This document shows positions 1-29,764 of a stretch of 64,000 nucleotides of DNA, piece by piece. Origin of the DNA: an uncultured Thermoplasmatales archaeon (GTDB lineage: Archaea; Thermoplasmatota; E2; DHVEG-1); the NCBI GenBank assembly GCA_964638175.1, contig CAZWZY010000006.1:12386-76385 (forward strand), read 5' to 3'. Below the pieces are notes generated by a model that saw only the letters and a list, made by a program, of their open reading frames with translations, searched no databases and was not told the origin of the DNA. Each line of letters begins with the position of its first letter. The stretch's first letter is position 1. The position numbers were made by a program, and so were the translations under genes.

Positions 1-1568
1 TGTACAACCACGTAATTAGCATTCCAGGTTCCTGCCACGTTTTGTTGGTTGCTTGCTGCGCTGTTGTTGTAATACATCCATATCTTTGTGTCAGCGCTGC
101 TCTCAAGCCGAGTGATGTTTACCCAACAGACCAGTTTTCCTGTGGTTCCATTAAAATCTTCAATTTCGTGATTGAGTTTCGTGGTGTTGTCACTGAAGAG
201 CACGAAGGCAATGTCATCGCCGTCATCTTGTGCTTTATCTCGTAAATCGGTGTCTGTGGTACTCACGAGGATGGGAAAGTTTACCATATCTGCATCAACT
301 TGTGAAGAGTTGACGGTGATCAGTTTTCGGTAGTTCCAATTGCTGTTCCACCAGGTGCTGCCTTCAAAGTCGTAGGTAGAGACGTTATCTCTATTGAAGA
401 GCAAGTAGGAGATACGGCCTGAGCTGGGAGCAAGACCGTCCTGAATCTCTTCAAAGGATGGGGCCGTAAACCAGGTTCTGACGGTTACGGGCTCTTGTTG
501 AGGTTGTAAGGAGGTGTAGACGCCGCGATTGAGACCGTCTGCCTTTGCTCCAAGGTTGTTAACCAAGGTTGTTGCTTGTGTTTGGATGGTGTTGGCAAAC
601 GAGACGTCTTTGCTGAACAGAGTAGCTGTCGCAACGGAACGCACCGTTTCTTGCGTAGCATTTGCACCGATAATCTCGATCTTTTCTAAGGCGAGACCGT
701 CTGAATATAACGGTGCAAAGATGGTCTCTGCATCCTCTGCCGTACTGATAGTTCGTTCGACGTAGAAGCTGGCTCCTGGAAGGATGTAACGTTGTTCTTG
801 TTGTGGATTGACGATGAGGTCAGTGGGGGCAGTAATAGTATCATCGCTGACGTTGGTTGGTGGTTGGGTATCATTGGTATAACCATCATCGATTGGTGGA
901 GTGGTATCGTTCTGTGTCTGGTTGTTATCTGGTTGTGTGGTATCGTTCTGTGTGACGTTTCCTTCAGGGGTTTCCTCAGATTCGTTACCGCTCACGTTTG
1001 ATGCAATGGTCCACCGGTAGGTGGTCTGGTAGAAGGTTTGGTTGTAATCAACGGCTGAAAGAGTGATCAGGTGATCTCCTGCAGAGAGATTATGGAAGAG
1101 CCAGGTTCCTTGCCAGAGCCGAGTGGCGATATGGTTATCGATGGTGGTGTTTGCTACCACGGTTAGATTGATGGTCTCGATACCTGAGATATTAGCCCAT
1201 GCGTCAGTAATATTGTAGGACGCAGGAATGGTGGCATTGAAGTAGATGATATCTCCTTCAACAGGATCGATAGGCTCAATGGACACGCCGATATCGAAGT
1301 CGCCTCCTCCGTAGAAGACGGGTAGTGTGGTAAGGAGAAGTCCAAAGACCAGTGCAAGCGAAATCAATGGAAGAATGATCTTGCTCCAGGATAGCTTCGG
1401 ACGAGGTTTGGATGGGGTTCTATGTTGTCGTTTGCTGATAAGGTCTTTCTTGGTTTCCAACGTTTTATCGATGAAGAGACGGTCCACCTGTTCATCGATG
1501 TCGTGTGGTGTTTGGTCGAAGTAATCTTGTAGGCGGTCAAGCCAGCGGAGATCGTCTCTACCGATCAT
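1..1568 (-). CDS. Giant surface glycoprotein paralog 1, N-terminal ~522 codons only (the rest lies beyond the left window edge)
   Basis: Absent from the ORF track because it has no stop in the window. Hand translation of the minus strand from ATG 1568-1566 gives MIGRDDLRWLDRLQDYFDQTPHDIDEQVDRLFIDKTLETKKDLISKRQHRTPSKPRPKLSWSKIILPLISLALVFGLLLTTLPVFYGGGDFDIGVSIEPIDPVEGDIIYFNATIPASYNITDAWANISGIETINLTVVANTT. This is the same cytoplasmic tail, TM helix and first ectodomain as in the 3686- and 2458-aa proteins. The frame was spot-checked open at 421-480, at 301-360 (STWWNSNWNYRKLITVNSS, DUF2341-like) and at 1-60 (AASNQQNVAGTWNANYVVV). The ATG overlaps the TGA of the upstream gene (ATGA, 1565-1568). 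Confidence 0.85.
   Translation of the reverse strand, partial: MIGRDDLRWLDRLQDYFDQTPHDIDEQVDRLFIDKTLETKKDLISKRQHRTPSKPRPKLSWSKIILPLISLALVFGLLLTTLPVFYGGGDFDIGVSIEPIDPVEGDIIYFNATIPASYNITDAWANISGIETINLTVVANTTIDNHIATRLWQGTWLFHNLSAGDHLITLSAVDYNQTFYQTTYRWTIASNVSGNESEETPEGNVTQNDTTQPDNNQTQNDTTPPIDDGYTNDTQPPTNVSDDTITAPTDLIVNPQQEQRYILPGASFYVERTISTAEDAETIFAPLYSDGLALEKIEIIGANATQETVRSVATATLFSKDVSFANTIQTQATTLVNNLGAKADGLNRGVYTSLQPQQEPVTVRTWFTAPSFEEIQDGLAPSSGRISYLLFNRDNVSTYDFEGSTWWNSNWNYRKLITVNSSQVDADMVNFPILVSTTDTDLRDKAQDDGDDIAFVLFSDNTTKLNHEIEDFNGTTGKLVCWVNITRLESSADTKIWMYYNNSAASNQQNVAGTWNANYVVV
949..1001 (-). repeat. 53-nt perfect repeat shared by giant paralogs 1 and 2 (copy in paralog 1)
   Basis: 949-1001 is identical to 13901-13953 (tgtgtgacgtttccttcaggggtttcctcagattcgttaccgctcacgtttga). 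It encodes ..SNVSGNESEETPEGNVTQ.. in both proteins. Confidence 0.9.
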
Positions 1569-2020
1569 GGCCGATCACCTCCTTTTTGCTTGTGCGGGAC
1601 GAGGACGGCGGTGCGGCTGATGATAAATGCCAGCTCATGGAAATAGGGGTTTTCCTCGCGGATCCACTGGAGTAGACGGGAGCGGCCTAACTTGTGTTCC
1701 AATACCTTCAAGACTCGTCGATACGGGATGGGAGAAACAGGACGAGTCTGTTTGAGACGGGAGTGAACATACTCCCGTGCTTCTGCAAAGGTGATGACCT
1801 CGCCAAGGAGTGGGTCAAAGTTCTTGGTCCAGTGATGGATGGTTTGCCTTGAAACATCACCTTTGGTGACCTGGAGCCGGGACAACAGGTCGTTGACAAA
1901 GCCTCGGTACTCCCGCATGTTTTGAAAAGACGGGATGGTTCTGCGGAAGTACAGACAGTAGGCGATAATCGGAAAGGGGATGTTGGTCGGTGGGTAGCCT
2001 TTCAGGGCGTCTTCGGTGAA
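1535..2020 (-). repeat. Module-junction repeat, copy 1 (giant-gene start plus the 3' three quarters of the Zn-ribbon/HTH gene)
   Basis: 1535-2020 aligns with 22650-23135 (offset 21115) with a single mismatch (1560 A vs 22675 G), compared line by line. It is visibly more GC-rich than the flanks. Confidence 0.9.
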
Positions 2021-2155
2021 GTATTTGCCACAGGTTTTGCAAAAAAATTGGAGCTTGTCTTGATGCGGTCGACCATTTTGAATAATATGTTTACTCTGAC
2101 AATGAGGGCAACTAAACGGTAAACGTCTACCTTGTGGTTTGAGTGATCGCCCCAT
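1565..2155 (-). CDS. Zinc-ribbon + HTH DNA-binding protein, IS1-InsA / IS6 N-terminal-module-like, no DDE domain (copy 1)
   Basis: 196-aa ORF. It has two CxxC pairs (CPHCQS...CKTCGKYF), then IPFPIIAYCLYFRR...DVSRQTIHHWTKNF (HTH-like). The stop overlaps the giant-gene start. The last codons spell the SD GGAGGTGATCGGCC (1569-1582). The start lies in a conserved GGGATGGG context. Confidence 0.75.
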   Translation of the reverse strand: MGRSLKPQGRRLPFSCPHCQSKHIIQNGRPHQDKLQFFCKTCGKYFTEDALKGYPPTNIPFPIIAYCLYFRRTIPSFQNMREYRGFVNDLLSRLQVTKGDVSRQTIHHWTKNFDPLLGEVITFAEAREYVHSRLKQTRPVSPIPYRRVLKVLEHKLGRSRLLQWIREENPYFHELAFIISRTAVLVPHKQKGGDRP

Positions 2156-2379: not shown

Positions 2380-2862
2380 TTGTCTGAGGATGGGATGCAA
2401 CAGGTAATCGCACCAGTATTACCTTCAAAAAGAACACTTTACAGCATAGGTGCAGTATTGCTAGGAATCAGTATACTGCTGGTGATGATTGCCTTTCCTT
2501 TTTCGTGGGCAGTTGTTGGCTCTGAGTCAATGAGTCCCACCTTACAAAAAGGAGATATTTTGATATGGAAGCCGGCTCAACAAACCGATCTTGCCATCGG
2601 CGATATTGTTGTGTATGAAAGCTATACGCAATGGCCCAAGAAAACACTCGTCGTACACCGAATATCGGATATTCTCTATGATAGCACTGGCAGCGTACTC
2701 ATTGAAACAAAAGGAGATGCAAATGAATGGATTGACCAAGAACGGCCGCACGTTCCCCAGCCCTATATTTCATATGAGCACATCATCGGAAAGGTGATTT
2801 GTGTTGGTTCTCAACCGCTCAAGATACCAACTGTTGCGCTATTACATAGCTGGTTTGTGTAG
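2380..2862 (+). CDS. Signal peptidase I, archaeal/ER (Sec11/SipW, S26B) type, paralog 1
   Basis: N-terminal TM helix, then VVGSESMSPTLQKGDIL (catalytic Ser box), LVVHRI (His box) and ETKGDAN (GDxN box). The ORF-track start is TTG 2380; ATG 2395 (MQQVIAP...) is more likely. Confidence 0.8.
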   Translation: MSEDGMQQVIAPVLPSKRTLYSIGAVLLGISILLVMIAFPFSWAVVGSESMSPTLQKGDILIWKPAQQTDLAIGDIVVYESYTQWPKKTLVVHRISDILYDSTGSVLIETKGDANEWIDQERPHVPQPYISYEHIIGKVICVGSQPLKIPTVALLHSWFV

Positions 2863-2966: not shown

Positions 2967-3437
2967 GTGGATGGGATGCAGAAACGTGGGTATACGTGCC
3001 TAGTGTCGTCTAGATTGTTCTTTGGTGCACTCTTACTGAGTGTTGGGTGTATTGTTAGTACGCTGTTATTCTCTCCCTTTTCGTTTGCAATTGTCGGTTC
3101 TGCATCAATGAGCCCTTCGTTGTCAAAAGGAGATGTATTACTTTGGGAATCTACAGATATTATCAACATCGCAGTTGGTGATATTGTGGTGTATAAAAGT
3201 CCTGGGTGGTCTGGGGAAAAAATTATTGTACATCGAGTCATAGAGAAAACTGTCGATCATGAGGGTGAAGTGGTCTTAGCAACCAAAGGTGATGCTATCA
3301 CTCAAAATGATCAACAAGAGAGTGTGCTTTCTGAACCGTATGTGGAGAGTGACCAGGTACTCGGAAAAGTTGTATGTGTTGGTGAGCAACCTGTAAAGAT
3401 ACCATTTATTGGCATGATTGGTCTCTTGACAAAGTAA
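2967..3437 (+). CDS. Signal peptidase I, archaeal/ER (Sec11/SipW, S26B) type, paralog 2
   Basis: IVGSASMSPSLSKGDVL, IIVHRVI and ATKGDAITQND, with the same architecture as paralog 1. The likely start is ATG 2976 (MQKRGYT...). It converges on the 3' end of the 3686-aa gene with a 13-nt gap. Confidence 0.8.
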   Translation: MDGMQKRGYTCLVSSRLFFGALLLSVGCIVSTLLFSPFSFAIVGSASMSPSLSKGDVLLWESTDIINIAVGDIVVYKSPGWSGEKIIVHRVIEKTVDHEGEVVLATKGDAITQNDQQESVLSEPYVESDQVLGKVVCVGEQPVKIPFIGMIGLLTK

Positions 3438-3450
3438 TGCCCCCTGTTTT

Positions 3451-6400
3451 TTATGACGCAACAGACTTGAAGGTCACCGTCAGCCCAAGTGGATCAGTGG
3501 TTGACGAGGTGGTTGCCATTAAGAGTTTTAAGTCAAAGGTCTTCCAATTATCAGCAGCAAGATTGGTGACAAAGCTGGTGAAGGACGTGGTAATGTTGGT
3601 CCAGGATGCATCACCATTCTTCTTGTACCACAAACTGAAGTTGTCTTTCGCCGGTGGGGTGGTAAGATTCCATTGCGCACCCGTAGTACTGTTGGTGGCA
3701 TGAGTGGCATTAATGGTGATGTCTAAGGCAACATTTCCTTCATTTGTAAGATTGAAATAGAACCCAGTGGTCTCATTGATATCGCCAATATCAACCGAAC
3801 CCATGTCCCACTGAGGAGGAGCAATATCGAAGGATATGTTCTCTTCTTCTGTTGTAAAATGGAATATCCTGCTTGCATTCGAATCTAATCCATCATCTAC
3901 TGTTACCTTCCACCAATAGGTAGTATTGGTGGATGATGCCTGAGTATAACCCCAGGAAACAGTGGAATTTGCCGATACGCTGGTATTGGTTTGATTGACT
4001 ACCCATTCTCCCCATACTTCAAATGCATGATCATCAGTAGCATCAAGAGTGAATCCAGCTGTATCATTTCCATATCCTCTCACACCACCAGAGTATGTTG
4101 GACTGGTAGTATCTGTATGCCATTCTATATCGTTATCAGTATCACCATATTCACACATAGCGACAATGGCATATGTTGTTCCTTGTGAAAGTTCTACTGG
4201 CACATCCCAAGTTACATTCCACGTTCCATCAGGAGGGTAAGTTGAGGGAAGAGATGCTCCTGTTATTGTTTTACTTGCAAGATAACTATTCATGAGAGGA
4301 TGACCAGTTGCATTGGTTTCTCTAAGTTGGAAGGTTGCGTTTGGTGGGTTTCCATATTTACAGACGTACGGTGAAATATCTGTGCATTCAAAGGTTGCAT
4401 TTGTTCCTGTCGTTCCAATGGTAAATGTTTGGAATTCGTACCATCCGGCATGATAGTAATATGGCGAATTTGACTCAGTATATTGTTCGAAGGTTTGTGC
4501 ACCACTAGCATTCTGCCAAAAGTTCACGATAAGTGTATCTCCATCAGAATCGTTTGCCCAGACCTGACAAGTTGGTTGTAATGACACGTCGGTACTACCA
4601 TTCTTCGGAGTTATAGGTGTTATTGTTGGCAGTGTATTGGTTTTGTTATTTGCACTGGCATTCTCATCTGACCATTGATGGACGGTGGGGTTGTATGTCC
4701 ACGTTGTGTAAGACCAAATCTGGTAGTAATACGTCGTTCCCTCTGCAAGTCCAGTGTGTTCATATGAGGTCCCGGTATCATTATAGATCATGGTTCCTTG
4801 TCCTCGAGGCCAACTGGAAGCAGTTGTGTTGTATTCAATATAGGTGTTATTTGCTCCCGTTCCTTTTACCCATGTAAGATTGATTTGTGTAGAGTTATAT
4901 GATGTTGCATTGAAGTTTGTTGGTGCATTTGGTTTTGTTAGAAATGCCATATCTGAGCCATAAGATGCCGCAACTGAGTTGTTTGCAGAAGCGCGGTAAT
5001 GATACAATGTTCCTGGCGCAAGAGAAATCGAATAGTTCACTTCTGCATATATTTGAGTGCATAAACTATTTAATAATCCATCCCAATAGAATAATCCGAT
5101 TCCAATTTCAAGGGAATCTACATCATTTTTTGTCCACGGCTGTCCATCTGAAGGTCTTGTTGTCCATGTTTCTGATTTTAAACCCCAAGATACAGGTAAT
5201 GATTTAATGCCGCTATCTGATTTTACACCATTCTCCTTTATAGATAATTTTACTTCACCAGCCGCGCCTTCTTTTTTGCACATTGCATAAACAGTAACAG
5301 AATTGATAGTTGCTCCGTTGGGAATAGAACTATCAGTCACATTATATAAATCGAATGAATGATCTTGATCGATAGCGCCTTTCACATAAGTATCATCTCC
5401 ATCTGAGGTTACCTCATCAACGCTTTCCCAATTTGTTGGGGCAGGGTCATTTCCATCTATAGCACATTGAGTAAGGCTCCCCGCTGCATTTGGTCGTAAT
5501 ACTTCAGTTTGGTAACCACCTAAACTATCTAAATTATAACTAAACTCATCACCAGTCGATTTTGTTTGATTGCTAGTTGTATTCCCATAACTTATGGTAG
5601 TTCCATATTCGAACCAGACGGTGCAGTTCTCTCCACCATCATTACTGAGATAACCATGCAAGGTAGCGTTGGTTTCTTCGACACCGGTAGAAGCGTTTGT
5701 TGTGACAATAGGAACAACTGAAGGATCACAATGACATATTGCATCAGCAACCGGTGGTGATGTTTCATCAGTACTCCCGGATTTTTTACCGATGCTGTAA
5801 AACTCGTAATAACCAGTGCCGTTTGGGAAGGAAAAGTTCCATTGCCAAGGGCTGCTGGTATCAGGATTACTCGCATCGCTCCATTGCATCCATCCTTCCT
5901 CATCTGCAACAGTCAGAAACGTTGTGGTATTTATGATGGTATTATAGGTGGTATTCATCCATTCATTGCTTCGTACTACTTTGCTAATACGTGCTTCATC
6001 AAATCGTCCATCCCAGCAATTTCCAGCAGCATCATTCCCTATTAATAGATAATTATGGTTCTCTTGTAACGATGCTCCCGTAGTAAATGTATCATCAAAA
6101 CCATCAACGGTTTTATTGTAATGCATAGAGGTGGGATCAATACCAGCGCCACCACCATCTTCATCATACGTACCCCAGAGATACCACCAATAGCCTACAC
6201 CACCAACTCCAGAACCATAATTATCAGGAACATTACCTCCTTGTACAAATTGACTCACTCTCAACCATCTTAGTTCGTAATTATCTTGTGTTCTAAGATA
6301 AACACCCCAATCATTATCAGTCCAGTCTGGCCCTTCCATAAAGATTCTGGGATATGTAACATCATTATTATTAAGATTAAGCCAGATTTCGGCTGTAATC

Positions 6401-9400
6401 TGGTCGTTTAGTGAGTACCAATTGGTGACATTGACGACTCGCTCCTCTGCATCACTATTCTGCATACCTCCTGCTATAATTCCTGTTGCACTTACCATGT
6501 TGGTATTTGTACCATTATAATTGTTTCCAGAAGAATCATTGAAGCTATTATTGAAGTGCCATACAGCCACATAATCGCCATCCCATGTGCCTGCTACATT
6601 CTGTTGGCTTATACACGTTGTGTTTCCAAAGTATAGATAAATTTCAGTATCAACTGAAGCGCTGAGGCTGGTGACATTCACCCATGCGATAAGGGTACCA
6701 CTCGTGCCGTTAAACGACTCTATTTCGTGGTTCAGTTTAGTTCCGGTTATATTAGTAAAGACAACATCGTCTCCATCATCCTGAGCGCTGTTTGCGAGAC
6801 CCATATCAGTGATACTGACAAGTATCGGGAAGTCGGTGAGATCATCATCAACTTGATTATGATCTATGGTTAATTTCTTCCGATATTTCCAGGAGGCATT
6901 CCACCAGTCAGAAGCATTCCCCCAATTCGAATTATCAGAAGAATAGCGGTACCATAGGGTTACATTATCATAGTCATTATGTTGAGCGGTGGCATTAATC
7001 GTTAATGAAGAAGAGAATATCTCGTATGGGCTAATTGCATCAACCGATGTACTAATCGATCCCGTAGTGAAGTGATATGTTTCATTACACCAATACGTAC
7101 CATCAGTGAGGTTTACACTCCAATAGCATATTGTACCATAATTACTAAAGTTAGTATTTATTTGACTGATATTTACACTGCCACTACTAGCATCAATGCT
7201 ATTATTGGTGGCGAACAATGCCCAACCACCACTACTGTTGCTATACCAATACGCAGTTAAAGTATCACCATCAGCGTCATCTACGGTGACATTTAACACA
7301 GGAATAATGCTGATATTCGTCGCTCCATTTGATGGGGATGGGGAACTCTGCGTCGGTTCAGGAGATAATATCTCAAGAGTGCGTGTTTCGGTTGTATTCT
7401 CATTTCCTGCCACATCAATGGCATGAGCATAATACGAATAGTTCCCAACAGATAATCCTGTAAAGTTATGATGTAGCTTGTAGTCTGAGGAGTTATAAGA
7501 AGCGTTTATTTCTTCCCAGCTGAGAACTCGGTTCCATACACGTACTTCATCGATGGATCCATTGAAAAGAAATGCTGTTCCAGGGCTTTCGCCACCAATA
7601 CATAATGGAAGACTATTTGTCCCGATAGGGCCAGTGGTGGCCGGTGTTACAGTGCCTGCATCCGCACCGTTAATGTAATATTGTATGGTGGTACCATTGT
7701 AGGTTGCAACAACGTGTGACCATTCTCCCTGATTAAATCCACTAGATGACCATAAGTCATTTCCTTGTGCTACCCCACCAAACTCCGCTGCCAGTTCTAT
7801 TTTTCCAGTACCCATAATTCTAAGTGCGTACGCTGATATCCGGCTTTTACTGACTAACCGGGGCCAACCTATGAACGTCCCATAGTTCACCCATGCTTCA
7901 ATCGTGATTTCATCAGTAATATCGAAGCTTACATCATTTCCACAGTCAACATAGTCGCCGCTATCAAAACTGAGAGCAGATCCAAACTTTCCCGTTGTCA
8001 GATTTGGTAATCCTGTATTCAACCAGAGAGCATATGAATCTCCCTCGTTAAATCCTGTCAATGTGTCTTGGAAATAGAGTGCCCTGTAAGATTCATTGAC
8101 AACTTCATAATCTGAGATAATGGTAGTATTACCGTTCGCCAATCCAGAAGTGGCCATAAATGTCCATCCATTAAAAACATCGTCTGCAGTCTGTAACGTA
8201 TCATCATCTACACACTGTGTTTCATTGGTGGCAGCCACATCTGCAATACCAGTAATATTAGTATATTCTCGAGTTCCATTGTTACCATAGGTAGAATTAT
8301 CAAAGACATGTGTAGCATTGGTGTGTTCAAAGCTCCAATAACCGACGAGACTATTATCCCAGTTGATAAAGCTTGAGGTGTCGCTAGAATCTGAGACGGT
8401 AACATTAATCTGTGCATAAGTATCGGTTGTTTCAGTATCATTTGCGGGAGTTGGCGGAGTGTCAAAGGAGATGGAAGGAGCAGTATCATCGAATAGACAT
8501 ATTACATCAGCACTCCCTGGCGCAGACTCAATATTGGTAAAGTTATCCGTCGCAATACTGTAGAATTCGTAATAACCAGTACCGTTGGGGAAGGTAAAGG
8601 TCCAATTCCAGTCATAATCAGTATCGGTTGTGTTTTCCACCCAGCCACCCCAGCTACTGTTATCCGATGAATAGCGATACCATAAGGTGACGTTCTTTAC
8701 ACCTGATAACTCATCTGATGCGGTAGCTGTAATCTCTATCAATCCTGTGGAATTTACATACGGAGAAATTGTATCAATTGACGAACTTGGAGGTTGGTTA
8801 TCAGAGCCAGCAACCGCATCTCTTCCTTCAATAATTCTTCCATAATAGATACTATATGGAGAAGAGGTTCCTTGCCTCCAGACGAAATCAATTTTTGTGC
8901 CATATGGCCCCAGCACGCAACTTGGAGAGTCATGCCCTGTATTATCATTTGTTATTGAGATATTACCACTAAGCGAGTTGTTGGTTCTCCAGAACGTTCG
9001 GTAGAAAATATCATAATTTGCATTAATTGTATCTGATCTGAAAAGAATATACACTTCTGTACTATTGTGTCCTCTGGAGATGTGTGCTCCTCCTGAATCG
9101 TTATGAACCGCATAGTCTGAGGACCAGCTTAAGGTGGGGATAGGAGTATATCTGACATATCGAGTGTTATCGTTACTATGCCAATAAGTTAAATAGAGAT
9201 ATCCATCAGAAGTAACAACAATGGATGGGTCCTGTCGGTAGTTTGTCCCCCAAAGCGACCGGGCATTTATGGTCCATGATGTTCCTCCGTTATACTGGAT
9301 ACGTTGAGTATACCCATTACCTCCATTTGCACTCCATTGCCGAGGCGAGACCCAAATATCCTGCGTTGATGGATCGATATCGACAGAGAGATCATAACTT

Positions 9401-12400
9401 CCCGATCCATGATCAACGCCAGCATCTGTTCCCCATGTCGATCCTCCATCAGTCGAGTTTGAATGCAGCAATATGGGATCATCAAATTTTGTCCAGACAA
9501 TGTGAATATAGTCGTTAGAATCAACAAGGATGTGAGGGTGACGTATACGATCGTATCTATCTCCGCTACTACCATAATCTCTTGCATCGGCAACTTCAGC
9601 AGTACTGCCCCAACTCCATGTCCACGGATTGTTTGCTTTGTCCACCGTACCGTTCTTGTACCATAATCGGTGGGCACCTGCATCAGCAATTTCTCGATAA
9701 TCTCCCATGCAAAAGTGGAGATTGTCACTAGAATCTATAGCGACACCAAGCATGGTATAGGGATTATCCTCAAGAACTTCGGTGTCCCAGGTCATCCCAT
9801 CATTGTACGAACGGGCATACATCACTTTGTCATCAGTAGAGTTATAGTAAATAATATGAATTGTTCCATCGGAAGTTCTTACAATTTGACGTCCGTCGCC
9901 GCCCGTTGTCGTACCTGGAGAATCTATCAAAAACGTATCAGCAATACCTGGAGATGATTCTTCATTGCTAGCATTGTCACAAGCGATGCTATAAAACTCA
10001 TAATAGCCACTACCGTTGGGGAAGGTAAAGGTCCAATTCCAGTCATAATCAGTATCGGTTGTGTTTTCCACCCAGCCACCCCAGCTACTGTTATCCGATG
10101 AATAGCGATACCATAAGGTGACGTTCTTTACACCGCTGTAGCCATCAAATGCATACGCTGATAATTCGACACTACCGCTATTGTTCCAATATGGAGAAAT
10201 CGTTTTAACGCTGGATGAAGGTGTTGTGTTATCACGATAACAGAACGCATCGGCACTACCTGGAGTCGATTCATTAACTGACTTGGCTTTTTTCCCGATA
10301 CTGTAGAACTCATAATAGCCAGTACTGTTAGGGAAGTCGAAATTCCAACTCCAAGGACTGCTCGTATCTGGATTGTTTGCGTTATTCCATTTTTGCCAAT
10401 CCCCTTGAAGTTCAAATAAATAGTCGTCATCAGTATCCTGAGTCCACCCACCGATAGCACTGTACGTCCATTCACTACCACCAGAATAGGAAGCTGAAGT
10501 GCTGTCATATCTAAGATAGACGTATTTATCTCCAGTTCCGCTTGCACTCCATGTCATCGCATAGGTAGTACCTGCTTGAAGCTCGTAGCCACCAAAATCA
10601 ACTGCCCACCATTCATAATCAGCAGTTGATGCAGCTGAAACATTTCCTGATCCTTGTATCAGATATCCTCCGCTGGTATTTGGCTGACCACCAGCAATCG
10701 TTGGATACAACTTACAATATAATCTCTCAACACCACTATCTATGTTGATAAGGAATTTAATACTGTTTAAGTTGAATGTTTCGTTGGCACCGACAGCGCC
10801 GATGGTAAACGTTTGATAATAAGTAGTGCTTATCAGCATAGTGCCAGTGTAATATAATCGGTCAGCGTCACCGCCTGTCTTGTAATACTCGTATGTGTTA
10901 TTATTTGTTCGATACCACAAGGTGACATTATCTGGAGGTAAACCGTTATTAGAAGCAGTAATAGTCAATGAGGGGGTGGTGACATTATAGGGAATGATAG
11001 TATCAATCGTTGTGTTTAACGGTGCATAACATATTGCATCAGCAGCATCTGGAGGGGTCTCATTCTCAACGCCTGATTTATTGCCGATACTGTAGAATTC
11101 GTAATATCCTGCGCCGTCCGGGAAGTCAAAACTCCACTGCCAAGGACTACTTGTATCAGGATTGTTTGCGTTATCCCATTTCTGCCAATCTCCATGAAGT
11201 TCAAACAACACATCATCATCAGTCATTTCTTGCCAAGCTCCTACGCTTGGTTTATACCACATACTACCACCAGGATACGTAGCAGAAGTAGTATCGTTAG
11301 CCAGATACAGAGAATTGCCCATCGTTCCACTTATGCCCCATTTCATTGCATAGGTTTCACCCGCTTGCAGTGTATATCCATCGAAATTGACTGATCGCCA
11401 TTCCCACGTTGTGTTTGAGGTTTCTGAAACACCACCGGAGCCAGATGTTAGCGATCCACCACCGGTATCTGGCTGACCATTATCATCAGTCGGATACAAG
11501 GTACACGTTAACGTACTGACACCGCCAGGCGAGCTTTGTTTTATGAGAAAGTCAATATTCGTTAAATTGTATGTTCTTGTGGCGCCCACAGCACCGATGG
11601 TAAATGTTTGATAGTAGGTCCCAGTTGATGCTCCAAGAACTTGATATGTAAGGTAGTCGTCGTTACCTGTGGTATATTCTTCAATATTCCAAGAGTTGTT
11701 ATCAAGAGAATGCCGGTAATAGAGAGTAACATTATCCACAGCACTATAATTGGTAGCGGTAATAGCAAGAGGATCTGAGGTTATCTGATAAGGACTAATG
11801 GCATCAACGGCAGTGCTAATCTGGCTATATTCGACATTAAGTTTTGCACCATACACCTGTGAACTATATTCATACGACCAGATGATGAGATTTCCTACAT
11901 TTTCATTTTTTCCTTTCAGAAGTACGGTTAGGTTATTACCACTACTCCATCCCGAACGATCAATAACTTCTTGAACAGCATCTGTAAAGTCTGGACTCTG
12001 TATCCATGTGCTCGTTCCCACATTGGTATCTGTCCATTCCGTAGAATTCTCAGTGGTTGTCCGGCTGGCAACATCGTAGTTATCCAAAAAATTCTGAGAG
12101 TCGTCAATGGCTTCACAATATATGTCAAGGTTGGGATCATCATGAGATCCACTAGAATACGTGTACACTTCAAGATATGCATCATCTATAAAGGCACCAT
12201 TTGGAATAGAAATATCTGAGAAAAATAAACCACCATTGTATCTACTTGTGTCAGTCGTGCTATCATCAGCCCTTATATATTGTGCTGTACGACTAATGGA
12301 AGATTCGGCATCATTTTCATAGGCGTCATTGACACCAGCATCAATCTGTGTATCAATACTTGGGTCGATCACCACTGGAAACTCCATATGATTGAGATCT

Positions 12401-14511
12401 GATACTTTGATACCAGAGAGAAGATAATATTCGCCATCATGTTGGACAAAACGATATGTCAACTGTTGTCTTATACTCTTGTTATGCAATTCGTATGCAT
12501 TGCCAACGGGCATGAAAAACTTAAGATCATCCAAGACATCCTTAAAATTAATCTGTCCATCTGTTACTGTAAAATCATCTCTCTTTTCCTTCCCATCACT
12601 ATATAACAGGAGGTTTTGATAATCCAATTTAGTAATAAATACCAGATATGAGTCCTGATTGCTAAATCCGTAAGTAGATGGTGGGGCATTCTGTAATACT
12701 GTTTTTGTCGTATTTGTCATTACAATTTCTTCCTTAAGTCCATGTGGGGTGTATCGCCACGTGATATTCATACCACTAAAGACATTGGGAAATACACACG
12801 CACTCCCCTGGATTGATGGTTGTACCGACTGAATGCTTTGCAAGTACTCATATTGCCAATTCTTTGATGGGTCGAGATATCCTACGCCAACCAATTTACT
12901 ACGCAAGACATCCACACTAGGATCGTTTGATTTGCCATACGCGAAAGCAATGGGCCATTCCGCTGAAAGATCAGGTTTGAAATACACATTAAACAATCCT
13001 CGTTCATTCCCTGCTCGATAACCATATTCATAAGCCGGGTGAGATGCATTCAACAAAGACACATTACATAGAATGGGATGCCATTGTCCTTCCTCGTCCT
13101 GATAATTAACAGGGCCAAGATAGCTTACATATCGATAGTGGCCACTGGAAGTGTCATAATATTTATTCCAGTTCATCCCTTGTTCAACAAGAATATGATC
13201 TGGTGAAGTGGCCAATTTGTCGGCTATATCTGGGGGATTAGGATCAGGAACTACTGAAAAGGCAATTTCTTGTGGGGTCGTTGTGTTCTTCTGCGGTTCT
13301 GCGAGTGTACTTGCAGAAGCAAAGGAGGAGATTGTGCTCCAGAAGGAAGTGGTACGATTGTATCCCCAGGCGGCATAATAGCAACTCGTACTTTGGGTAA
13401 GATTGGTGTCATTATATGATGGTGCGGTTCCGTTGTAAAGGACAATACCGTCAGCCGTATGTTCTGGATAGCCTTCGGTGTTTCGTACCACATATGTGGT
13501 ATCTGATCCTCTTCCTTTGCTCCAGGAGAGATGGATGGTGGTTGTATTCAATGCACGAGCAGTGAAGTTACCTGGAGGAGCGACTGGCTGCTCTGTTGCA
13601 TTGCTTGTCACAGTTATCTGCAGTATTTTCTGTATCGTAGTATTGCCTACCGTAGCATTGACCTCGAACACATAGTCTCCAGGCAATGCTGCCCGTATGC
13701 TATAGTTGAAGGTACCGTTACTGGCATTGATGGGATGCGAAGTAGTGAGATTTGGACCGGATATGGAAAAGTTTACACTGGTATTGATAAGGGTTTCGTT
13801 GTAGTAAATAAGACCGTGAAGAGCAATGGTCTCGTTTACTGTGTACTGTTGTTTATCAGTCCAAAGGTCAAGGCTAAGGGTGTCATTTGTGGTCTCGTTT
13901 TGTGTGACGTTTCCTTCAGGGGTTTCCTCAGATTCGTTACCGCTCACGTTTGAGTCTAACCAACGATAGGTAGTCTGGTAGAATGTTTGGTTGCGGCCTA
14001 TTGCTGAAATGGTAATCAAATGGTCCCCCGCAGAAAGATTGTGGAGGAACCAGGTGCCTTGCCAGAGCTGGTCAGTGGTACGATTACCCACAGTAGTATT
14101 TGCGACCATCGTCAGATTGATAGTCTTGATACCTGAGATATTAGCCCATGCGTCAGTAATATTGTAGGATGCAGGAATCGTGGCATTGAGGTAGATCAGG
14201 TCTCCTTCAACAGGATTAAGCGGTTCAATGGAGACACTGATATCGAAATCTCCACCATAAAAGATAGGCAATATCGACAGAATCATGGCAACGATAATCG
14301 CAACTGAGACAAGTGGGAGGATAATTTTGGTAAGTGGTGTCTTTTTGCGTGGTTTTGAGGTAGTTGGTTGTTGATGCTTCTTGATCCGATGGGTGTTTGC
14401 CTCTAAGGTTTTGTCAATGAAGAGACGATCGACACGATCGTCAATGTCATGGCGTGTTGATGAGTTAGTATGGAGGCGGTCAAGCCAGCGGAGATCGTCA
14501 TTGCCTATCAC
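3451..14511 (-). CDS. Giant (3686 aa) N-terminally anchored multidomain surface glycoprotein, paralog 2
   Basis: Uninterrupted ORF. It starts with a conserved cytoplasmic tail and a single TM helix (IILPLVSVAIIVAMILSILPIF). Motifs read from the translation: FN3-like (PNAPTNFNATSYNSTQINLTWVKGTGANNTYIEY); BNR/Asp-box sialidase-like (SYNDGMTWD, STDGGSTWG; nt ~8704-10010); LamG/ConA-like (LPLCIGGESPGTAFLFNGSIDEVRVWNRVLSWEEI; DGRFDEARISKVVRSNEW); DUF2341-like (WWNASWKYRKKLTIDHNQVDDDLTDFPILV...IYLYFGN); five ...GYYEFYSI modules; and a C-terminal ~127-aa domain shared with two other proteins. The GTG start overlaps the upstream TGA (GTGA). Confidence 0.9.
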   Translation of the reverse strand: MIGNDDLRWLDRLHTNSSTRHDIDDRVDRLFIDKTLEANTHRIKKHQQPTTSKPRKKTPLTKIILPLVSVAIIVAMILSILPIFYGGDFDISVSIEPLNPVEGDLIYLNATIPASYNITDAWANISGIKTINLTMVANTTVGNRTTDQLWQGTWFLHNLSAGDHLITISAIGRNQTFYQTTYRWLDSNVSGNESEETPEGNVTQNETTNDTLSLDLWTDKQQYTVNETIALHGLIYYNETLINTSVNFSISGPNLTTSHPINASNGTFNYSIRAALPGDYVFEVNATVGNTTIQKILQITVTSNATEQPVAPPGNFTARALNTTTIHLSWSKGRGSDTTYVVRNTEGYPEHTADGIVLYNGTAPSYNDTNLTQSTSCYYAAWGYNRTTSFWSTISSFASASTLAEPQKNTTTPQEIAFSVVPDPNPPDIADKLATSPDHILVEQGMNWNKYYDTSSGHYRYVSYLGPVNYQDEEGQWHPILCNVSLLNASHPAYEYGYRAGNERGLFNVYFKPDLSAEWPIAFAYGKSNDPSVDVLRSKLVGVGYLDPSKNWQYEYLQSIQSVQPSIQGSACVFPNVFSGMNITWRYTPHGLKEEIVMTNTTKTVLQNAPPSTYGFSNQDSYLVFITKLDYQNLLLYSDGKEKRDDFTVTDGQINFKDVLDDLKFFMPVGNAYELHNKSIRQQLTYRFVQHDGEYYLLSGIKVSDLNHMEFPVVIDPSIDTQIDAGVNDAYENDAESSISRTAQYIRADDSTTDTSRYNGGLFFSDISIPNGAFIDDAYLEVYTYSSGSHDDPNLDIYCEAIDDSQNFLDNYDVASRTTTENSTEWTDTNVGTSTWIQSPDFTDAVQEVIDRSGWSSGNNLTVLLKGKNENVGNLIIWSYEYSSQVYGAKLNVEYSQISTAVDAISPYQITSDPLAITATNYSAVDNVTLYYRHSLDNNSWNIEEYTTGNDDYLTYQVLGASTGTYYQTFTIGAVGATRTYNLTNIDFLIKQSSPGGVSTLTCTLYPTDDNGQPDTGGGSLTSGSGGVSETSNTTWEWRSVNFDGYTLQAGETYAMKWGISGTMGNSLYLANDTTSATYPGGSMWYKPSVGAWQEMTDDDVLFELHGDWQKWDNANNPDTSSPWQWSFDFPDGAGYYEFYSIGNKSGVENETPPDAADAICYAPLNTTIDTIIPYNVTTPSLTITASNNGLPPDNVTLWYRTNNNTYEYYKTGGDADRLYYTGTMLISTTYYQTFTIGAVGANETFNLNSIKFLINIDSGVERLYCKLYPTIAGGQPNTSGGYLIQGSGNVSAASTADYEWWAVDFGGYELQAGTTYAMTWSASGTGDKYVYLRYDSTSASYSGGSEWTYSAIGGWTQDTDDDYLFELQGDWQKWNNANNPDTSSPWSWNFDFPNSTGYYEFYSIGKKAKSVNESTPGSADAFCYRDNTTPSSSVKTISPYWNNSGSVELSAYAFDGYSGVKNVTLWYRYSSDNSSWGGWVENTTDTDYDWNWTFTFPNGSGYYEFYSIACDNASNEESSPGIADTFLIDSPGTTTGGDGRQIVRTSDGTIHIIYYNSTDDKVMYARSYNDGMTWDTEVLEDNPYTMLGVAIDSSDNLHFCMGDYREIADAGAHRLWYKNGTVDKANNPWTWSWGSTAEVADARDYGSSGDRYDRIRHPHILVDSNDYIHIVWTKFDDPILLHSNSTDGGSTWGTDAGVDHGSGSYDLSVDIDPSTQDIWVSPRQWSANGGNGYTQRIQYNGGTSWTINARSLWGTNYRQDPSIVVTSDGYLYLTYWHSNDNTRYVRYTPIPTLSWSSDYAVHNDSGGAHISRGHNSTEVYILFRSDTINANYDIFYRTFWRTNNSLSGNISITNDNTGHDSPSCVLGPYGTKIDFVWRQGTSSPYSIYYGRIIEGRDAVAGSDNQPPSSSIDTISPYVNSTGLIEITATASDELSGVKNVTLWYRYSSDNSSWGGWVENTTDTDYDWNWTFTFPNGTGYYEFYSIATDNFTNIESAPGSADVICLFDDTAPSISFDTPPTPANDTETTDTYAQINVTVSDSSDTSSFINWDNSLVGYWSFEHTNATHVFDNSTYGNNGTREYTNITGIADVAATNETQCVDDDTLQTADDVFNGWTFMATSGLANGNTTIISDYEVVNESYRALYFQDTLTGFNEGDSYALWLNTGLPNLTTGKFGSALSFDSGDYVDCGNDVSFDITDEITIEAWVNYGTFIGWPRLVSKSRISAYALRIMGTGKIELAAEFGGVAQGNDLWSSSGFNQGEWSHVVATYNGTTIQYYINGADAGTVTPATTGPIGTNSLPLCIGGESPGTAFLFNGSIDEVRVWNRVLSWEEINASYNSSDYKLHHNFTGLSVGNYSYYAHAIDVAGNENTTETRTLEILSPEPTQSSPSPSNGATNISIIPVLNVTVDDADGDTLTAYWYSNSSGGWALFATNNSIDASSGSVNISQINTNFSNYGTICYWSVNLTDGTYWCNETYHFTTGSISTSVDAISPYEIFSSSLTINATAQHNDYDNVTLWYRYSSDNSNWGNASDWWNASWKYRKKLTIDHNQVDDDLTDFPILVSITDMGLANSAQDDGDDVVFTNITGTKLNHEIESFNGTSGTLIAWVNVTSLSASVDTEIYLYFGNTTCISQQNVAGTWDGDYVAVWHFNNSFNDSSGNNYNGTNTNMVSATGIIAGGMQNSDAEERVVNVTNWYSLNDQITAEIWLNLNNNDVTYPRIFMEGPDWTDNDWGVYLRTQDNYELRWLRVSQFVQGGNVPDNYGSGVGGVGYWWYLWGTYDEDGGGAGIDPTSMHYNKTVDGFDDTFTTGASLQENHNYLLIGNDAAGNCWDGRFDEARISKVVRSNEWMNTTYNTIINTTTFLTVADEEGWMQWSDASNPDTSSPWQWNFSFPNGTGYYEFYSIGKKSGSTDETSPPVADAICHCDPSVVPIVTTNASTGVEETNATLHGYLSNDGGENCTVWFEYGTTISYGNTTSNQTKSTGDEFSYNLDSLGGYQTEVLRPNAAGSLTQCAIDGNDPAPTNWESVDEVTSDGDDTYVKGAIDQDHSFDLYNVTDSSIPNGATINSVTVYAMCKKEGAAGEVKLSIKENGVKSDSGIKSLPVSWGLKSETWTTRPSDGQPWTKNDVDSLEIGIGLFYWDGLLNSLCTQIYAEVNYSISLAPGTLYHYRASANNSVAASYGSDMAFLTKPNAPTNFNATSYNSTQINLTWVKGTGANNTYIEYNTTASSWPRGQGTMIYNDTGTSYEHTGLAEGTTYYYQIWSYTTWTYNPTVHQWSDENASANNKTNTLPTITPITPKNGSTDVSLQPTCQVWANDSDGDTLIVNFWQNASGAQTFEQYTESNSPYYYHAGWYEFQTFTIGTTGTNATFECTDISPYVCKYGNPPNATFQLRETNATGHPLMNSYLASKTITGASLPSTYPPDGTWNVTWDVPVELSQGTTYAIVAMCEYGDTDNDIEWHTDTTSPTYSGGVRGYGNDTAGFTLDATDDHAFEVWGEWVVNQTNTSVSANSTVSWGYTQASSTNTTYWWKVTVDDGLDSNASRIFHFTTEEENISFDIAPPQWDMGSVDIGDINETTGFYFNLTNEGNVALDITINATHATNSTTGAQWNLTTPPAKDNFSLWYKKNGDASWTNITTSFTSFVTNLAADNWKTFDLKLLMATTSSTTDPLGLTVTFKSVAS
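8580..8703 (-). repeat. 124-nt perfect intragenic direct repeat, copy A
   Basis: 8580-8703 equals 10011-10134 base for base. The offset is 1431 nt (477 codons, in frame). It encodes GVKNVTLWYRYSSDNSSWGGWVENTTDTDYDWNWTFTFPNG. Confidence 0.9.
10011..10134 (-). repeat. 124-nt perfect intragenic direct repeat, copy B
   Basis: See 8580-8703. Confidence 0.9.
13901..13953 (-). repeat. 53-nt perfect repeat shared by giant paralogs 1 and 2 (copy in paralog 2)
   Basis: See 949-1001. Confidence 0.9.
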
Positions 14512-22683: not shown

Positions 22684-23135
22684 GGCCGATCACCTCCTTT
22701 TTGCTTGTGCGGGACGAGGACGGCGGTGCGGCTGATGATAAATGCCAGCTCATGGAAATAGGGGTTTTCCTCGCGGATCCACTGGAGTAGACGGGAGCGG
22801 CCTAACTTGTGTTCCAATACCTTCAAGACTCGTCGATACGGGATGGGAGAAACAGGACGAGTCTGTTTGAGACGGGAGTGAACATACTCCCGTGCTTCTG
22901 CAAAGGTGATGACCTCGCCAAGGAGTGGGTCAAAGTTCTTGGTCCAGTGATGGATGGTTTGCCTTGAAACATCACCTTTGGTGACCTGGAGCCGGGACAA
23001 CAGGTCGTTGACAAAGCCTCGGTACTCCCGCATGTTTTGAAAAGACGGGATGGTTCTGCGGAAGTACAGACAGTAGGCGATAATCGGAAAGGGGATGTTG
23101 GTCGGTGGGTAGCCTTTCAGGGCGTCTTCGGTGAA
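22650..23135 (-). repeat. Module-junction repeat, copy 3
   Basis: See 1535-2020. Confidence 0.9.
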
Positions 23136-28561: not shown

Positions 28562-28737
28562 GAAACCGCTCACCACCTTTTTTAGTAGTATAATACTTTG
28601 TTATATATTACCATGACTTACTTTGTCATTACCTACTTATATACCTATCCTGTAAAACCATCATATACGACAAAATAACAAAACGACATTTTGTCATCTC
28701 CCGTTTTCCCACCTTAACGGCGCTCATCACTTCTTAT

Positions 28738-28975: not shown

Positions 28976-29087
28976 CACAACATATTCTCGGATACAAAAC
29001 ACTGGCACAGTTTTAATAAACGTCTGTTAATATTGGGAAAACAATCGTTAAACCGGTGGAAACTATCTTTTTTAATATTAAAGTCGT

Positions 29088-29717: not shown

Positions 29718-29764
29718 TAAACATATTATATATAAAGAGAGAGAAATATTTAAACCTACAACAT

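What the first reader, a model, noticed from the sequence alone, without database searches (positions are those of the whole stretch)
3454..3838. Unassigned ~130-aa C-terminal domain shared by two giants and a small secreted protein
Seen in sequence: the C-termini align over their whole length:
- 3686-aa protein: ISFDIAPPQWDMGSVDIGDINETTGFYFNLTNEGNVALDITINA...GAQWNLTTPPAKDNFSLWYKKNGDASWTNITTSFTSFVTNLA...TFDLKLLMATTSSTTDPLGLTVTFKSVAS
- 2458-aa protein (15310-15693): TITVTPDQWAMGTIDVGGSNETTGFYFTLTNNGNCYVDIQIKG...GTTWKLTPTPGHDNFSMQYNLSSEGTWTTINTSFEPFLADLA...TFDLKFIAATTSSTTTPMSLSLTFKSVVS
- ~276-aa protein (24163-24570): LSINVTPWNWDAGTIDYGSWNATSNTYFNLTNQGNVNINVKIHG...SNYWNLTSSVGVNNYTLKYQKSGAGTWTAIGL...

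There is no C-terminal TM helix and no PGF/PEF-type sorting signal. All three contain a W-x-L-T motif.

Inference: this is a common beta-sandwich module for attachment or co-assembly, for example non-covalent surface binding as with Gram-positive WxL domains, or strand exchange as in TasA-like fibres. I cannot assert homology to either.
Basis: partly seen in the sequence, partly recalled or inferred. Interest (0 to 1): 0.65.

Follow-up and report, generated by a model that had tools for sequence, protein, structure and literature searches.

The report
Unannotated pilin-like C-terminal docking module
Three surface proteins of this archaeon end in the same unannotated ~130-residue beta-sandwich, which in archaea and some bacteria is almost always encoded next to a small membrane-anchored partner protein and probably docks giant glycoproteins and secreted enzymes onto the cell surface.

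Summary
On the minus strand, the 3686-aa giant, the 2458-aa giant and a 276-aa secreted protein end in one homologous ~133-aa module (pairwise E 2e-46 to 1e-20). These are the only three copies in the window.

The module matches no Pfam, NCBIfam or PDB sequence. It is nevertheless a large family: 933 clusters at 50% identity. In 153 of 160 top hits it ends within 6 residues of the C-terminus.

It occurs in three forms:
- at the end of large proteins (proteases, lectins, giants);
- after a small CarboxypepD_reg-like domain;
- alone in ~165-aa secreted proteins, which usually carry an extra N-terminal beta-strand.

In Thermoplasmatota, Chloroflexota and an unidentified bacterial contig, module genes sit beside a ~200-aa protein (signal peptide, Ig-like domain, C-terminal TM helix). 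This is the window's 198-aa family. Linkage to S26B signal peptidases is only occasional.

A confident AF2 model (pLDDT 86) most resembles chaperone-usher pilin subunits, but no match reaches significance.

The small/large/membrane-partner triad mirrors Firmicute WxL clusters, yet membership of WxL, TasA, CARDB and T9SS-CTD fails on sequence. Most likely this is a docking or assembly module that works by beta-strand complementation. That mechanism is inferred, not shown.

The parts
3454..3852 (-). C-terminal module of giant 1 (aa 3554-3686)
   Evidence: HMM match E 7.8e-63 covering profile positions 2-134. Translation. BLASTP against the other two copies.
15310..15708 (-). C-terminal module of giant 2 (aa 2326-2458)
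   Evidence: HMM match E 8.1e-61. Translation.
24163..24582 (-). C-terminal module of the small secreted protein. It has a 7-aa insertion and a C-terminal F-W-S-E-L variant.
   Evidence: HMM match E 1.4e-50. Alignment.
3451..14511 (-). Giant 1, 3686 aa. Conserved ~55-aa cytoplasmic N-terminus, one TM segment, LamG-like and DUF2341 domains, 157 N-glycosylation sequons, module at the end.
15307..22683 (-). Giant 2, 2458 aa. Same N-terminal region, S8 subtilase plus F5/8-type C domain, module at the end.
24160..24990 (-). Small protein, 276 aa counted from the ATG at 24990. Signal peptide, CarboxypepD_reg-like domain, then the module. It belongs to a conserved ~260-285-aa subfamily.
   Evidence: P0087, P0089, P0094, P0098; L024, L028, L029.
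23524..24120 (-). 198-aa partner: signal peptide, one Ig-like domain, C-terminal TM helix, basic tail. It lies immediately downstream of the small module protein.
   Evidence: The family has at least 408 members of ~195-212 aa. Linkage to module genes is shown.
2380..2862 (+). Archaeal-type (S26B) signal peptidase I, copy 1
   Evidence: TIGR02228 E 1.5e-19, above the cutoff. Pfam S26 hit.
2967..3437 (+). Signal peptidase I, copy 2. It is convergent with the 3' end of giant 1.
   Evidence: Pfam Peptidase_S26 E 5.7e-07. The same arrangement occurs in L010 and L013.
22680..23258 (-). Zn-ribbon protein, 192 aa. Its stop overlaps the start of giant 2.
   Evidence: Orthologues lie upstream of giants in L007, L009, L013, L020, L022.
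14508..15101 (-). Zn-ribbon protein, 197 aa. Its stop overlaps the start of giant 1.
1565..2155 (-). Zn-ribbon protein, 196 aa, upstream of a third giant.
1..1568 (-). 5' part of a third giant gene with the same N-terminal region. It runs off the left edge of the window, so its C-terminus is not visible.
24987..26519 (-). PKD-domain secreted protein, 510 aa, upstream of the small module protein. A conserved cluster member.
26651..28576 (-). F5/8-type C plus PKD secreted protein, 641 aa. First gene of the cluster.
   Evidence: Orthologues in L028 and L029.

Best explanation
The ~133-aa module is a previously unannotated, pilin-like beta-sandwich. It acts as the shared docking or assembly domain of a three-part cell-surface system. 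The three parts are:
(1) large cargo proteins that carry the module at their very C-terminus (here two, probably three, giant glycoproteins, one with a subtilase; elsewhere papain-like and S8 proteases with lectin domains);
(2) small secreted proteins that are little more than the module, mostly with an extra N-terminal beta-strand;
(3) a ~200-aa type I membrane protein with one Ig-like ectodomain (the window's 198-aa protein).

Proposed mechanism (inferred, not shown):
- The proteins are exported by Sec and N-glycosylated. For the giants, the neighbouring dedicated signal peptidases may remove the N-terminal signal-anchor.
- The module is the last part of the protein to emerge. It is then held at the membrane by beta-strand complementation with the membrane-anchored partner and/or with the N-terminal strand of the small subunits.
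- This would resemble the pilin domain of a two-domain tip adhesin (FimH, PapG) accepting the strand of the next subunit. It would also resemble a WxL domain accepting a strand from WxLIP.
- The outcome is either a 1:1 anchor complex or a short fibre of small subunits carrying a cargo protein at its end.
For: Shown:
- The three copies are homologous.
- The family is large, at 933 clusters of 50% identity. Its position is fixed at the C-terminus in 153/160 hits.
- There are three architectural classes. One is the module alone after a signal peptide.
- About 21 of 23 complete stand-alone proteins with a signal peptide carry an 8-12-residue N-terminal extension with alternating hydrophobic residues (for example TATITVTVT). 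The extension is missing where the module follows other domains.
- In the AF2 model of a stand-alone member the module has pLDDT >90. The extension is at 52-72 with no assigned strand, so it does not look like part of the core.
- The top Foldseek PDB hits are donor-strand pilins: FimG, PapE, the PapG pilin domain, CsuA/B, CsuE, FimA, CupE.
- In 12 archaeal loci a small module gene directly precedes a partner gene.
- In 8 of 8 bacterial loci, module genes and the partner are adjacent, with both a small and a large module protein present.
- A profile of the archaeal partners finds the bacterial ones at E 1e-9 and 9e-9 in a 25-sequence set.
- Whole domains are inserted in one loop of the module in P0129 and P0133, which suggests an exposed loop on a scaffold.
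- Sequon density of 36-48 per 1000 aa fits an extracellular location.
- Signal peptidase genes sit next to the giants here and in L010 and L013.

[quoted passage not shown] AF2 predicts insertion of a WxLIP strand into WxL (PMC10599100, PMC9772566).
Against: - No physical interaction has been shown or modelled.
- The Foldseek matches are weak: best E 6.3e-3, TM 0.3-0.55, none at E <= 1e-3. The first, low-confidence model gave different top hits, namely PPC, GOLD and CUB sandwiches.
- The giants have an N-terminal TM segment that could anchor them without any help from the module.
- Two archaeal loci with 10 kb of downstream sequence show no partner (L010, L018).
- No module-only (stand-alone) small subunit lies within the window itself.
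- The partner family has no invariant basic residue that would grip a C-terminal carboxylate, as PapD-type chaperones do.
Confidence: 0.5

Rival explanations
1. The module is a glycan- or lipoglycan-binding lectin-like domain. It would stick proteins to the cell's own glycocalyx, or to substrates, without a protein partner. Co-location with the 200-aa protein would then reflect only shared surface biology.
For: Cargo proteins are often hydrolases with lectin domains. WxL domains are reported to bind peptidoglycan (PMC9772566).
Against: A binding domain need not sit within 6 residues of the C-terminus in 153/160 proteins. This reading does not explain the module-only proteins with an N-terminal strand. 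It also does not explain the tight adjacency to the partner in two domains of life. No CBM or lectin Pfam family is matched.
Confidence: 0.15
2. The module is a C-terminal sorting or secretion signal that is recognised and removed by a peptidase, in the manner of the T9SS C-terminal domain cleaved by the C25-family sortase PorU. Candidate peptidases are the C25 proteins or the extra signal peptidases.
For: The module has a strict C-terminal position on very diverse cargo, including giants. C25 peptidases flank the cluster in L007, L008 and L012, and two lie in the window at 47237-52726.
Against: Module-only proteins would have nothing to sort. C25 genes lie within 10 kb in only 3 of 23 loci and in none of the bacterial loci. 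There is no hit to Por_Secre_tail or any NCBIfam sorting-signal model. The host organisms have no outer membrane (established knowledge for Thermoplasmatota and Chloroflexota).
Confidence: 0.08
3. The system is a very distant true homologue of the Firmicute WxL/WxLIP system. The module would correspond to a WxL domain or a DUF916-like domain, and the partner to the DUF3324 + TM part of WxLIP.
For: The three-part gene organisation and the C-terminal rule are identical (PMC10599100, PMC9772566). A W-x-L motif is invariant. PF06030 (WxLIP_PGBD/DUF916) is the most frequent weak Pfam hit, in 12 of 69 members with best E 0.0074. PDB 9i25 (WxLIP bound to long WxL) appears in the Foldseek list at rank 41, E 0.1.
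Against: No member reaches any Pfam threshold for WxL, DUF916 or DUF3324. A W-x-[LIV] near the C-terminus, where a second WxL motif would lie, is found in only 8 of 131 members. Profiles of the module find no PDB sequence, and the PDB includes the 9i25 chains. The partner has one Ig-like domain, not two.
Confidence: 0.15
4. It is an ordinary Ig-like spacer domain that happens to end these paralogous proteins, with no specific role.
For: Giant surface proteins are built from many beta-sandwich domains. The three window proteins are paralogues that also share N-terminal regions.
Against: The module occurs once per protein and never as an internal repeat. It is found on unrelated cargo in archaea and bacteria. 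It also exists alone, and it has a conserved gene partner.
Confidence: 0.05

Closest known systems
WxL gene clusters of Lactobacillales/Bacillales (small WxL, large WxL, WxLIP = DUF916+DUF3324+TM; PMC9772566, PMC10599100; PDB 9i25)
   Same: Both have a small secreted protein that is only the domain, and large multi-domain proteins with the domain always at the C-terminus. Both have a conserved signal-peptide / Ig-like / C-terminal-TM protein in the same cluster. Both have a buried W-x-L motif. In the WxL system a strand is predicted to insert from the membrane protein into the domain.
   Different: There is no Pfam WxL, DUF916 or DUF3324 match. Our module has one W-x-L motif, not two, and is ~133 aa rather than 160-190 aa. 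The partner has one Ig-like domain of ~140 aa rather than two. The hosts are Thermoplasmatota, Chloroflexota and an unidentified bacterial contig, not Firmicutes. The archaeal hosts have no peptidoglycan to bind.
Chaperone-usher pilins and two-domain tip adhesins (FimG, PapE, FimH, PapG, CsuE)
   Same: These are the best structural matches of the confident model. Polymerising subunits carry an N-terminal extension, whereas cargo-bearing proteins have the pilin-like domain at the C-terminus without one. The domain ends at the protein's C-terminus.
   Different: The matches are weak (E >= 6e-3). There is no usher, no periplasm and no free PapD-type chaperone. The candidate strand donor or holder is tethered to the membrane. 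There is no sequence similarity to Fimbrial families.
Archaeal donor-strand filaments: Sulfolobus threads (Saci_0406), bundling pili AbpA/TasA, cannulae (PMC9715654, PMC9245690)
   Same: They are secreted, heavily N-glycosylated beta-rich subunits with an N-terminal donor strand and no chaperone or usher. TasA has a dedicated SipW-type signal peptidase, as the giants have here.
   Different: There is no sequence match to any of these in PDB, and none is among the top 50 fold matches. Peptidase_M73 is not matched. Those systems are not known to append the subunit fold to the C-terminus of giant or enzymatic cargo.
T9SS C-terminal domain (Bacteroidota)
   Same: It is a beta-sandwich at the extreme C-terminus of very diverse and often giant cargo. 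C25-family peptidases are in the wider neighbourhood.
   Different: The T9SS domain needs an outer-membrane translocon and is removed. Here stand-alone module proteins exist, there is a membrane-anchored partner, and no NCBIfam or Pfam match is found.

Membership tests
WxL domain (Pfam PF13731) | Match to the family profile | tested here: not met
   No WxL hit at E <= 1 for the three window modules or ten stand-alone members. WxL is not among the 25 most frequent families at E <= 10 for 69 members.
WxL domain (Pfam PF13731) | Two conserved W-x-L motifs on adjacent strands, the second near the C-terminus (PMC9772566) | tested here: not met
   One W-x-L motif is invariant. A W-x-[LIV] in the last 12 residues occurs in only 8 of 131 members, mainly the subfamily of the small protein.
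WxL domain (Pfam PF13731) | Always the C-terminal domain, with small (domain-only) and large forms | tested here: met
   153/160 members end within 6 aa of the C-terminus. Stand-alone ~160-175-aa forms exist.
WxL cluster | Clustered with WxLIP (DUF916 + DUF3324 + TM helix) | tested here: not met
   The partner has the same topology, but only one Ig-like domain and no PF06030 or PF11797 hit. The analogy holds; membership does not.
WxL cluster | Binds peptidoglycan | not testable with these tools
Thermoplasmatota lack murein (established knowledge; PMC12448462 describes their envelope).
Chaperone-usher pilin | Incomplete Ig fold completed by a donor strand from the next subunit | tested here: inconclusive
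   CU pilins dominate the top Foldseek hits, but with E 6e-3 to 0.1 and TM 0.3-0.55. The N-terminal extension is unplaced in the monomer model. No multimer model was possible.
Chaperone-usher pilin | Periplasmic PapD-type chaperone and outer-membrane usher encoded alongside | tested here: not met
   No such genes appear in the window or in 31 related loci. The partner shows only weak PapD-like/ASH-type hits, Cep192_D5/D6 at E 0.002-0.014.
TasA / camelysin (Peptidase_M73, PF12389) | Match to the family profile or to solved TasA/AbpA sequences | tested here: not met
   No Pfam hit. No PDB sequence hit at E <= 10.
TasA / camelysin (Peptidase_M73, PF12389) | Dedicated SipW-type signal peptidase in the operon | tested here: inconclusive
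   Two S26B peptidases lie next to giant 1 here, and one each in L010 and L013. None is seen in the other 21 archaeal loci or the 8 bacterial loci.
   No CARDB hit for any module sequence. CARDB appears only weakly in unrelated neighbouring genes of L004.
T9SS C-terminal domain | Match to Por_Secre_tail models; outer-membrane T9SS present | tested here: not met
   No NCBIfam hit. The hosts are monoderm (established knowledge).

The most novel reading that the evidence does not exclude
The module and its ~200-aa membrane partner are the core of an undescribed, chaperone/usher-independent, donor-strand-type surface display or fibre system. It would be shared by wall-less or S-layer-less archaea (Thermoplasmatota) and monoderm bacteria (Chloroflexota and other uncultured lineages), and possibly share ancestry with the Firmicute WxL/WxLIP system. 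In Thermoplasmatota it would be the way the giant glycoproteins of the so far unidentified 'exterior protein layer' are tethered to the membrane.
Probability: 0.25. Interest if true: 0.8.

Novelty: new variant of a known kind. Interest (0 to 1): 0.66.

Why it matters
Two unannotated protein families form a conserved gene pair across two domains of life: the module (at least 933 clusters at 50% identity) and its partner (at least 408 proteins).

If the pair is a docking system, it would explain how organisms without a cell wall or a regular S-layer keep giant adhesins and secreted proteases on their surface. The composition and anchoring of the Thermoplasmatales exterior protein layer is an open question (PMC12448462).

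It would also extend the small/large/membrane-partner logic of WxL clusters, and the tip-adhesin logic of donor-strand pili, well beyond Firmicutes and Proteobacteria.

On the practical side, it gives annotators two new domain families and a rule for recognising surface-displayed cargo in metagenomes.

Tried and rejected
- Reading the + strand at the given coordinates gives only stops; the genes are on the minus strand.
- Pfam and NCBIfam scans of the three modules, ten stand-alone members and 69 family members found no family above threshold.
- PDB sequence searches with two profiles found nothing relevant.
- The first AF2 model, built from a shallow alignment, had pLDDT 65. Its Foldseek hits (PPC, GOLD, CUB) were not reproduced with the better model, so I do not rely on them.
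- Foldseek against viral structures gave nothing significant.
- The first word-index search with one module found only 11 fragments, which greatly understates the family.
- The genome-collection scan with the broad alignment failed for lack of conserved stretches and was repeated with the narrow one. As a result, only Thermoplasmatota-type relatives were fetched that way.
- hhalign of module against partner gave probability 4.5%, so the two are not detectably related to each other.
- I looked for real WxL/WxLIP sequences in the paper's supplements to run a profile-profile test. They are held only as images.
- The C25 peptidase link is conserved in only 3 of 23 loci, so it was demoted to a side note.
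- The NCBIfam 'CPR pilus PamR' hit of the 510-aa PKD protein is a 38-residue stretch at 25 bits against a cutoff of 300, and was dismissed.
Full report
**1. The observation**

The coordinates are correct, but the genes are on the minus strand. The + strand translation is full of stops. The minus strand reproduces the quoted peptides exactly.

The ORF list gives a 3686-aa ORF (3451..14511), a 2458-aa ORF (15307..22683) and a 291-aa ORF (24160..25035). The third most plausibly starts at the ATG at 24990, giving 276 aa with a signal peptide.

BLASTP of the last ~135 residues gives:
- giant 1 / giant 2: 54% identity, E 2e-46;
- giant 1 / small protein: 38%, E 1e-24;
- giant 2 / small protein: 36%, E 1e-20.

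An HMM of the module finds these three copies and no other in the six-frame translation of the window. Each copy lies at the very end of its protein. The giants have no C-terminal hydrophobic segment; their only TM-like stretch is at aa 56-75.

**2. Databases**

None of the three modules reaches any Pfam or NCBIfam threshold. The same holds for ten stand-alone relatives and for 69 family members scanned one by one. Profiles of the family find no sequence of any solved structure. In particular there is no CARDB, WxL, Peptidase_M73 (TasA) or Por_Secre_tail match. The domain really is unassigned.

**3. Size and architecture of the family**

The word-indexed search found only 11 metagenomic fragments. 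The exhaustive profile search found 933 representatives of 50%-identity clusters at E <= 1e-3, of which 72 were at E <= 1e-30.

Of the 160 sequences in hand, 153 have the module ending within 6 residues of the C-terminus. Most of the exceptions are partial matches to sequon-rich repeats, which look spurious. Two others (P0129, P0133) are true members in which a whole extra domain is inserted in one loop of the module.

There are three architectural classes:
- Large proteins of 600-3800 aa with the module last.
- A ~260-285-aa class with a signal peptide, a CarboxypepD_reg-like domain and the module. The window's small protein belongs here.
- Stand-alone proteins of ~160-175 aa that consist of a signal peptide and the module.

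About 21 of 23 complete stand-alone proteins have an extra 8-12-residue stretch between the signal-peptide cleavage site and the first core strand. This stretch has alternating hydrophobic residues (TATITVTVT, TVTCTVSA, TIGITAEG). The extension is absent where the module follows another domain.

**4. Genomic context**

A scan of one genome per species returned 23 loci. Nearly all are from Thermoplasmatota MAGs, so the window is most likely from that phylum.

These loci share a recurring gene order:
1. Zn-ribbon protein.
2. Giant with a conserved N-terminal region and the C-terminal module, often two or three such pairs in tandem.
3. PKD protein.
4. Stand-alone module protein(s).
5. A ~210-240-aa relative of the window's 198-aa protein.
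6. A beta-helix membrane protein.
7. A second ~200-aa relative.

The 198-aa family is present in 12 of the 14 loci that have enough non-giant sequence downstream. In all 12, a small module gene directly precedes a partner gene.

The window shows the left part of this arrangement: F5/8C-PKD protein, PKD protein, small module protein, 198-aa protein, then three Zn-ribbon/giant pairs. The third giant runs off the left edge. No stand-alone module gene lies in the window. Such genes may lie beyond the edge, but that is a guess.

The same pairing occurs in bacteria. Three loci were reached through stand-alone module proteins: a Chloroflexota MAG and two metagenomic contigs. Each has an adjacent ~204-213-aa protein with a signal peptide, an Ig-like domain, a TM helix and a basic tail. 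One of these loci also has a 616-aa papain-like protease with a lectin domain and the module at its end.

A profile of the archaeal partners finds the bacterial ones at E 1e-9, 9e-9 and 1e-3 in a 25-sequence set, over their full length in the best case.

The partner family has at least 408 members, almost all 195-212 aa. All are 'hypothetical', and the few that are labelled come from Thermoplasmatota, Chloroflexota or Dehalococcoidia.

As a reciprocal test, five bacterial loci were fetched through the partner. All five carry both a small module protein and a large protein with the module at its C-terminus. The large proteins are C1 protease + lectin (twice), S8 protease (twice) and a 322-aa protein.

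For S26B signal peptidases it is weak. They sit next to a giant in the window (two copies) and in L010 and L013, but nowhere else within the flanks examined.

**5. Structure**

The first AF2 model was built from 12 close sequences and was mediocre (pLDDT 65). Its Foldseek matches were generic sandwiches.

A second model, of a stand-alone member with a 25-sequence alignment spanning archaea and bacteria, is confident: mean pLDDT 86, above 90 across the module. The N-terminal extension stays at pLDDT 52-72 with no assigned strand.

Foldseek of this model against the PDB gives no match at E <= 1e-3. Roughly half of the top 50 are subunits of chaperone-usher pili: FimG, PapE, the pilin domains of PapG and FocH, CsuA/B, CsuE, FimA, CupE and CupB6. 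Their E-values are 6e-3 to 0.1 and their TM-scores 0.3-0.55. The recently solved WxLIP/long-WxL complex 9i25 appears at rank 41. Viral structures give nothing.

I read this as suggestive of a pilin-like Ig fold, not as proof.

**6. Mechanism**

What is shown:
- a strictly C-terminal or stand-alone beta-sandwich on secreted, heavily N-glycosylated proteins (36-48 sequons per 1000 aa);
- a conserved neighbouring membrane-anchored Ig-like protein;
- an N-terminal strand-like extension only on the stand-alone forms.

What I infer is that the module is a docking or assembly domain. Being the last part to leave the translocon, it is captured at the membrane by strand complementation. The strand would come from the partner, as predicted for WxLIP and WxL (PMC10599100), or from the N-terminal strand of small subunits, as in pili where a two-domain adhesin sits at the tip. 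I cannot decide whether the result is a 1:1 anchor or a short fibre.

The giants also have a conserved ~55-aa cytoplasmic N-terminus and a TM segment. If this is not cleaved they are anchored at both ends, or the module is the distal end. The two adjacent signal peptidases suggest cleavage, but this is not shown.

Rivals considered:
- a glycan-binding anchor;
- a cleaved sorting signal, with C25 peptidases adjacent in only 3 of 23 loci;
- true remote homology with WxL/WxLIP;
- a meaningless spacer domain.

**7. Comparison with known systems**

In organisation, the closest is the Firmicute WxL cluster: small WxL, large WxL with the domain always C-terminal, and WxLIP with Ig-like domains and a TM helix (PMC9772566, PMC10599100).

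Membership fails on several tests:
- there is no profile match;
- there is one W-x-L motif instead of two;
- the partner has one domain and no DUF916/DUF3324 match.

The only sequence hint is that PF06030 (DUF916) is the most frequent sub-threshold hit of the module, in 12 of 69 members with best E 0.0074.

In fold, the closest are donor-strand pilins, but there is no usher or free chaperone. Archaeal threads, bundling pili and TasA share the chaperone-free donor-strand logic (PMC9715654, PMC9245690), but show no detectable sequence or top-ranking fold similarity.

**8. Novelty and verdict**

I found no description of either family in the searchable literature.

I rate this as a new variant of a known kind: a WxL-cluster-like or pilin-domain-like surface system outside the lineages where such systems are known. 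It is defined by two unannotated families.

It bears on how S-layer-less Thermoplasmatales hold their unidentified exterior glycoprotein layer (PMC12448462). The mechanism remains inferred. Multimer modelling and a simple complex-formation assay would decide it.

Noticed in passing
window 1565-2155, 14508-15101, 22680-23258 (all minus strand): Each giant gene is preceded by a ~195-aa protein with an IS1/IS1595-type Zn-ribbon at its N-terminus, and the stop of that gene overlaps the giant's start. A 480-nt block is 479/480 identical between copies 1 and 3 (1540-2020 vs 22655-23135). The adjacent giant N-terminal coding regions are only 63-80% identical, which suggests gene conversion. Orthologues precede giants in L007, L009, L013, L020 and L022, so this is a conserved partner rather than an insertion sequence.
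   Followed up: partly
window 14350-14511 and 22520-22683 (aa 1-80 of the giants); window 1330-1568 for the third giant: The giants share a conserved ~55-aa hydrophilic N-terminus (MIGRDDLRWLD...DRLFIDKTLE) followed by one TM segment. This is unlike an ordinary signal peptide. It may be an extended signal or a signal-anchor, possibly read by the Zn-ribbon protein or cut by the neighbouring signal peptidases.
   Followed up: partly
window 47237-49759 (+) and 49808-52726 (-): Two Peptidase_C25 (gingipain/PorU-family) proteins lie here. Orthologues of the 972-aa one lie directly beside the module cluster in L007, L008 and L012, but here ~22 kb of housekeeping genes separate them from the cluster.
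   Followed up: partly
window 43356-47216 (+): gyrA carries an intein with a LAGLIDADG homing-endonuclease domain (Intein_splicing, Hint_2 and LAGLIDADG_3 hits).
   Followed up: no
L027 1038-1316, 2471-2752, 4989-5330 (same contig as L001): Three short ORFs each encode only the C-terminal half of the module. They are interspersed with PIN/RHH toxin-antitoxin genes, upstream of a normal PKD / stand-alone / partner cluster. They could be remnants of giant genes or spare 3' cassettes.
   Followed up: no
proteins P0129 and P0133: These are family members in which a whole extra domain is inserted in the loop between the 'F-x-L-Q-Y' strand and the 'W-T-x-I' strand of the module. The module can therefore serve as a scaffold displaying other domains.
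   Followed up: partly
window 35458-37728 (+): This 756-aa fn3-containing protein shares repeats with the giants of many related loci (E down to 7e-79) but lacks the module.
   Followed up: no
window 28000-32000, including 29765-30334 and 31112-32059 (+): This is a low-GC stretch (0.36 against ~0.42). It holds a nucleotidyltransferase-like ORF and an ORF with an HPFxDGNGR (Fic-type) motif, which may be a small inserted toxin-antitoxin-like pair between the cluster and purL.
   Followed up: no
L007 14571-16742 and L012 14849-17020: A 723-aa right-handed beta-helix (NosD/pectinesterase-like) protein with TSP3 repeats and a C-terminal TM helix sits between the two partner paralogues in the archaeal clusters. 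No counterpart was seen in the window.
   Followed up: no
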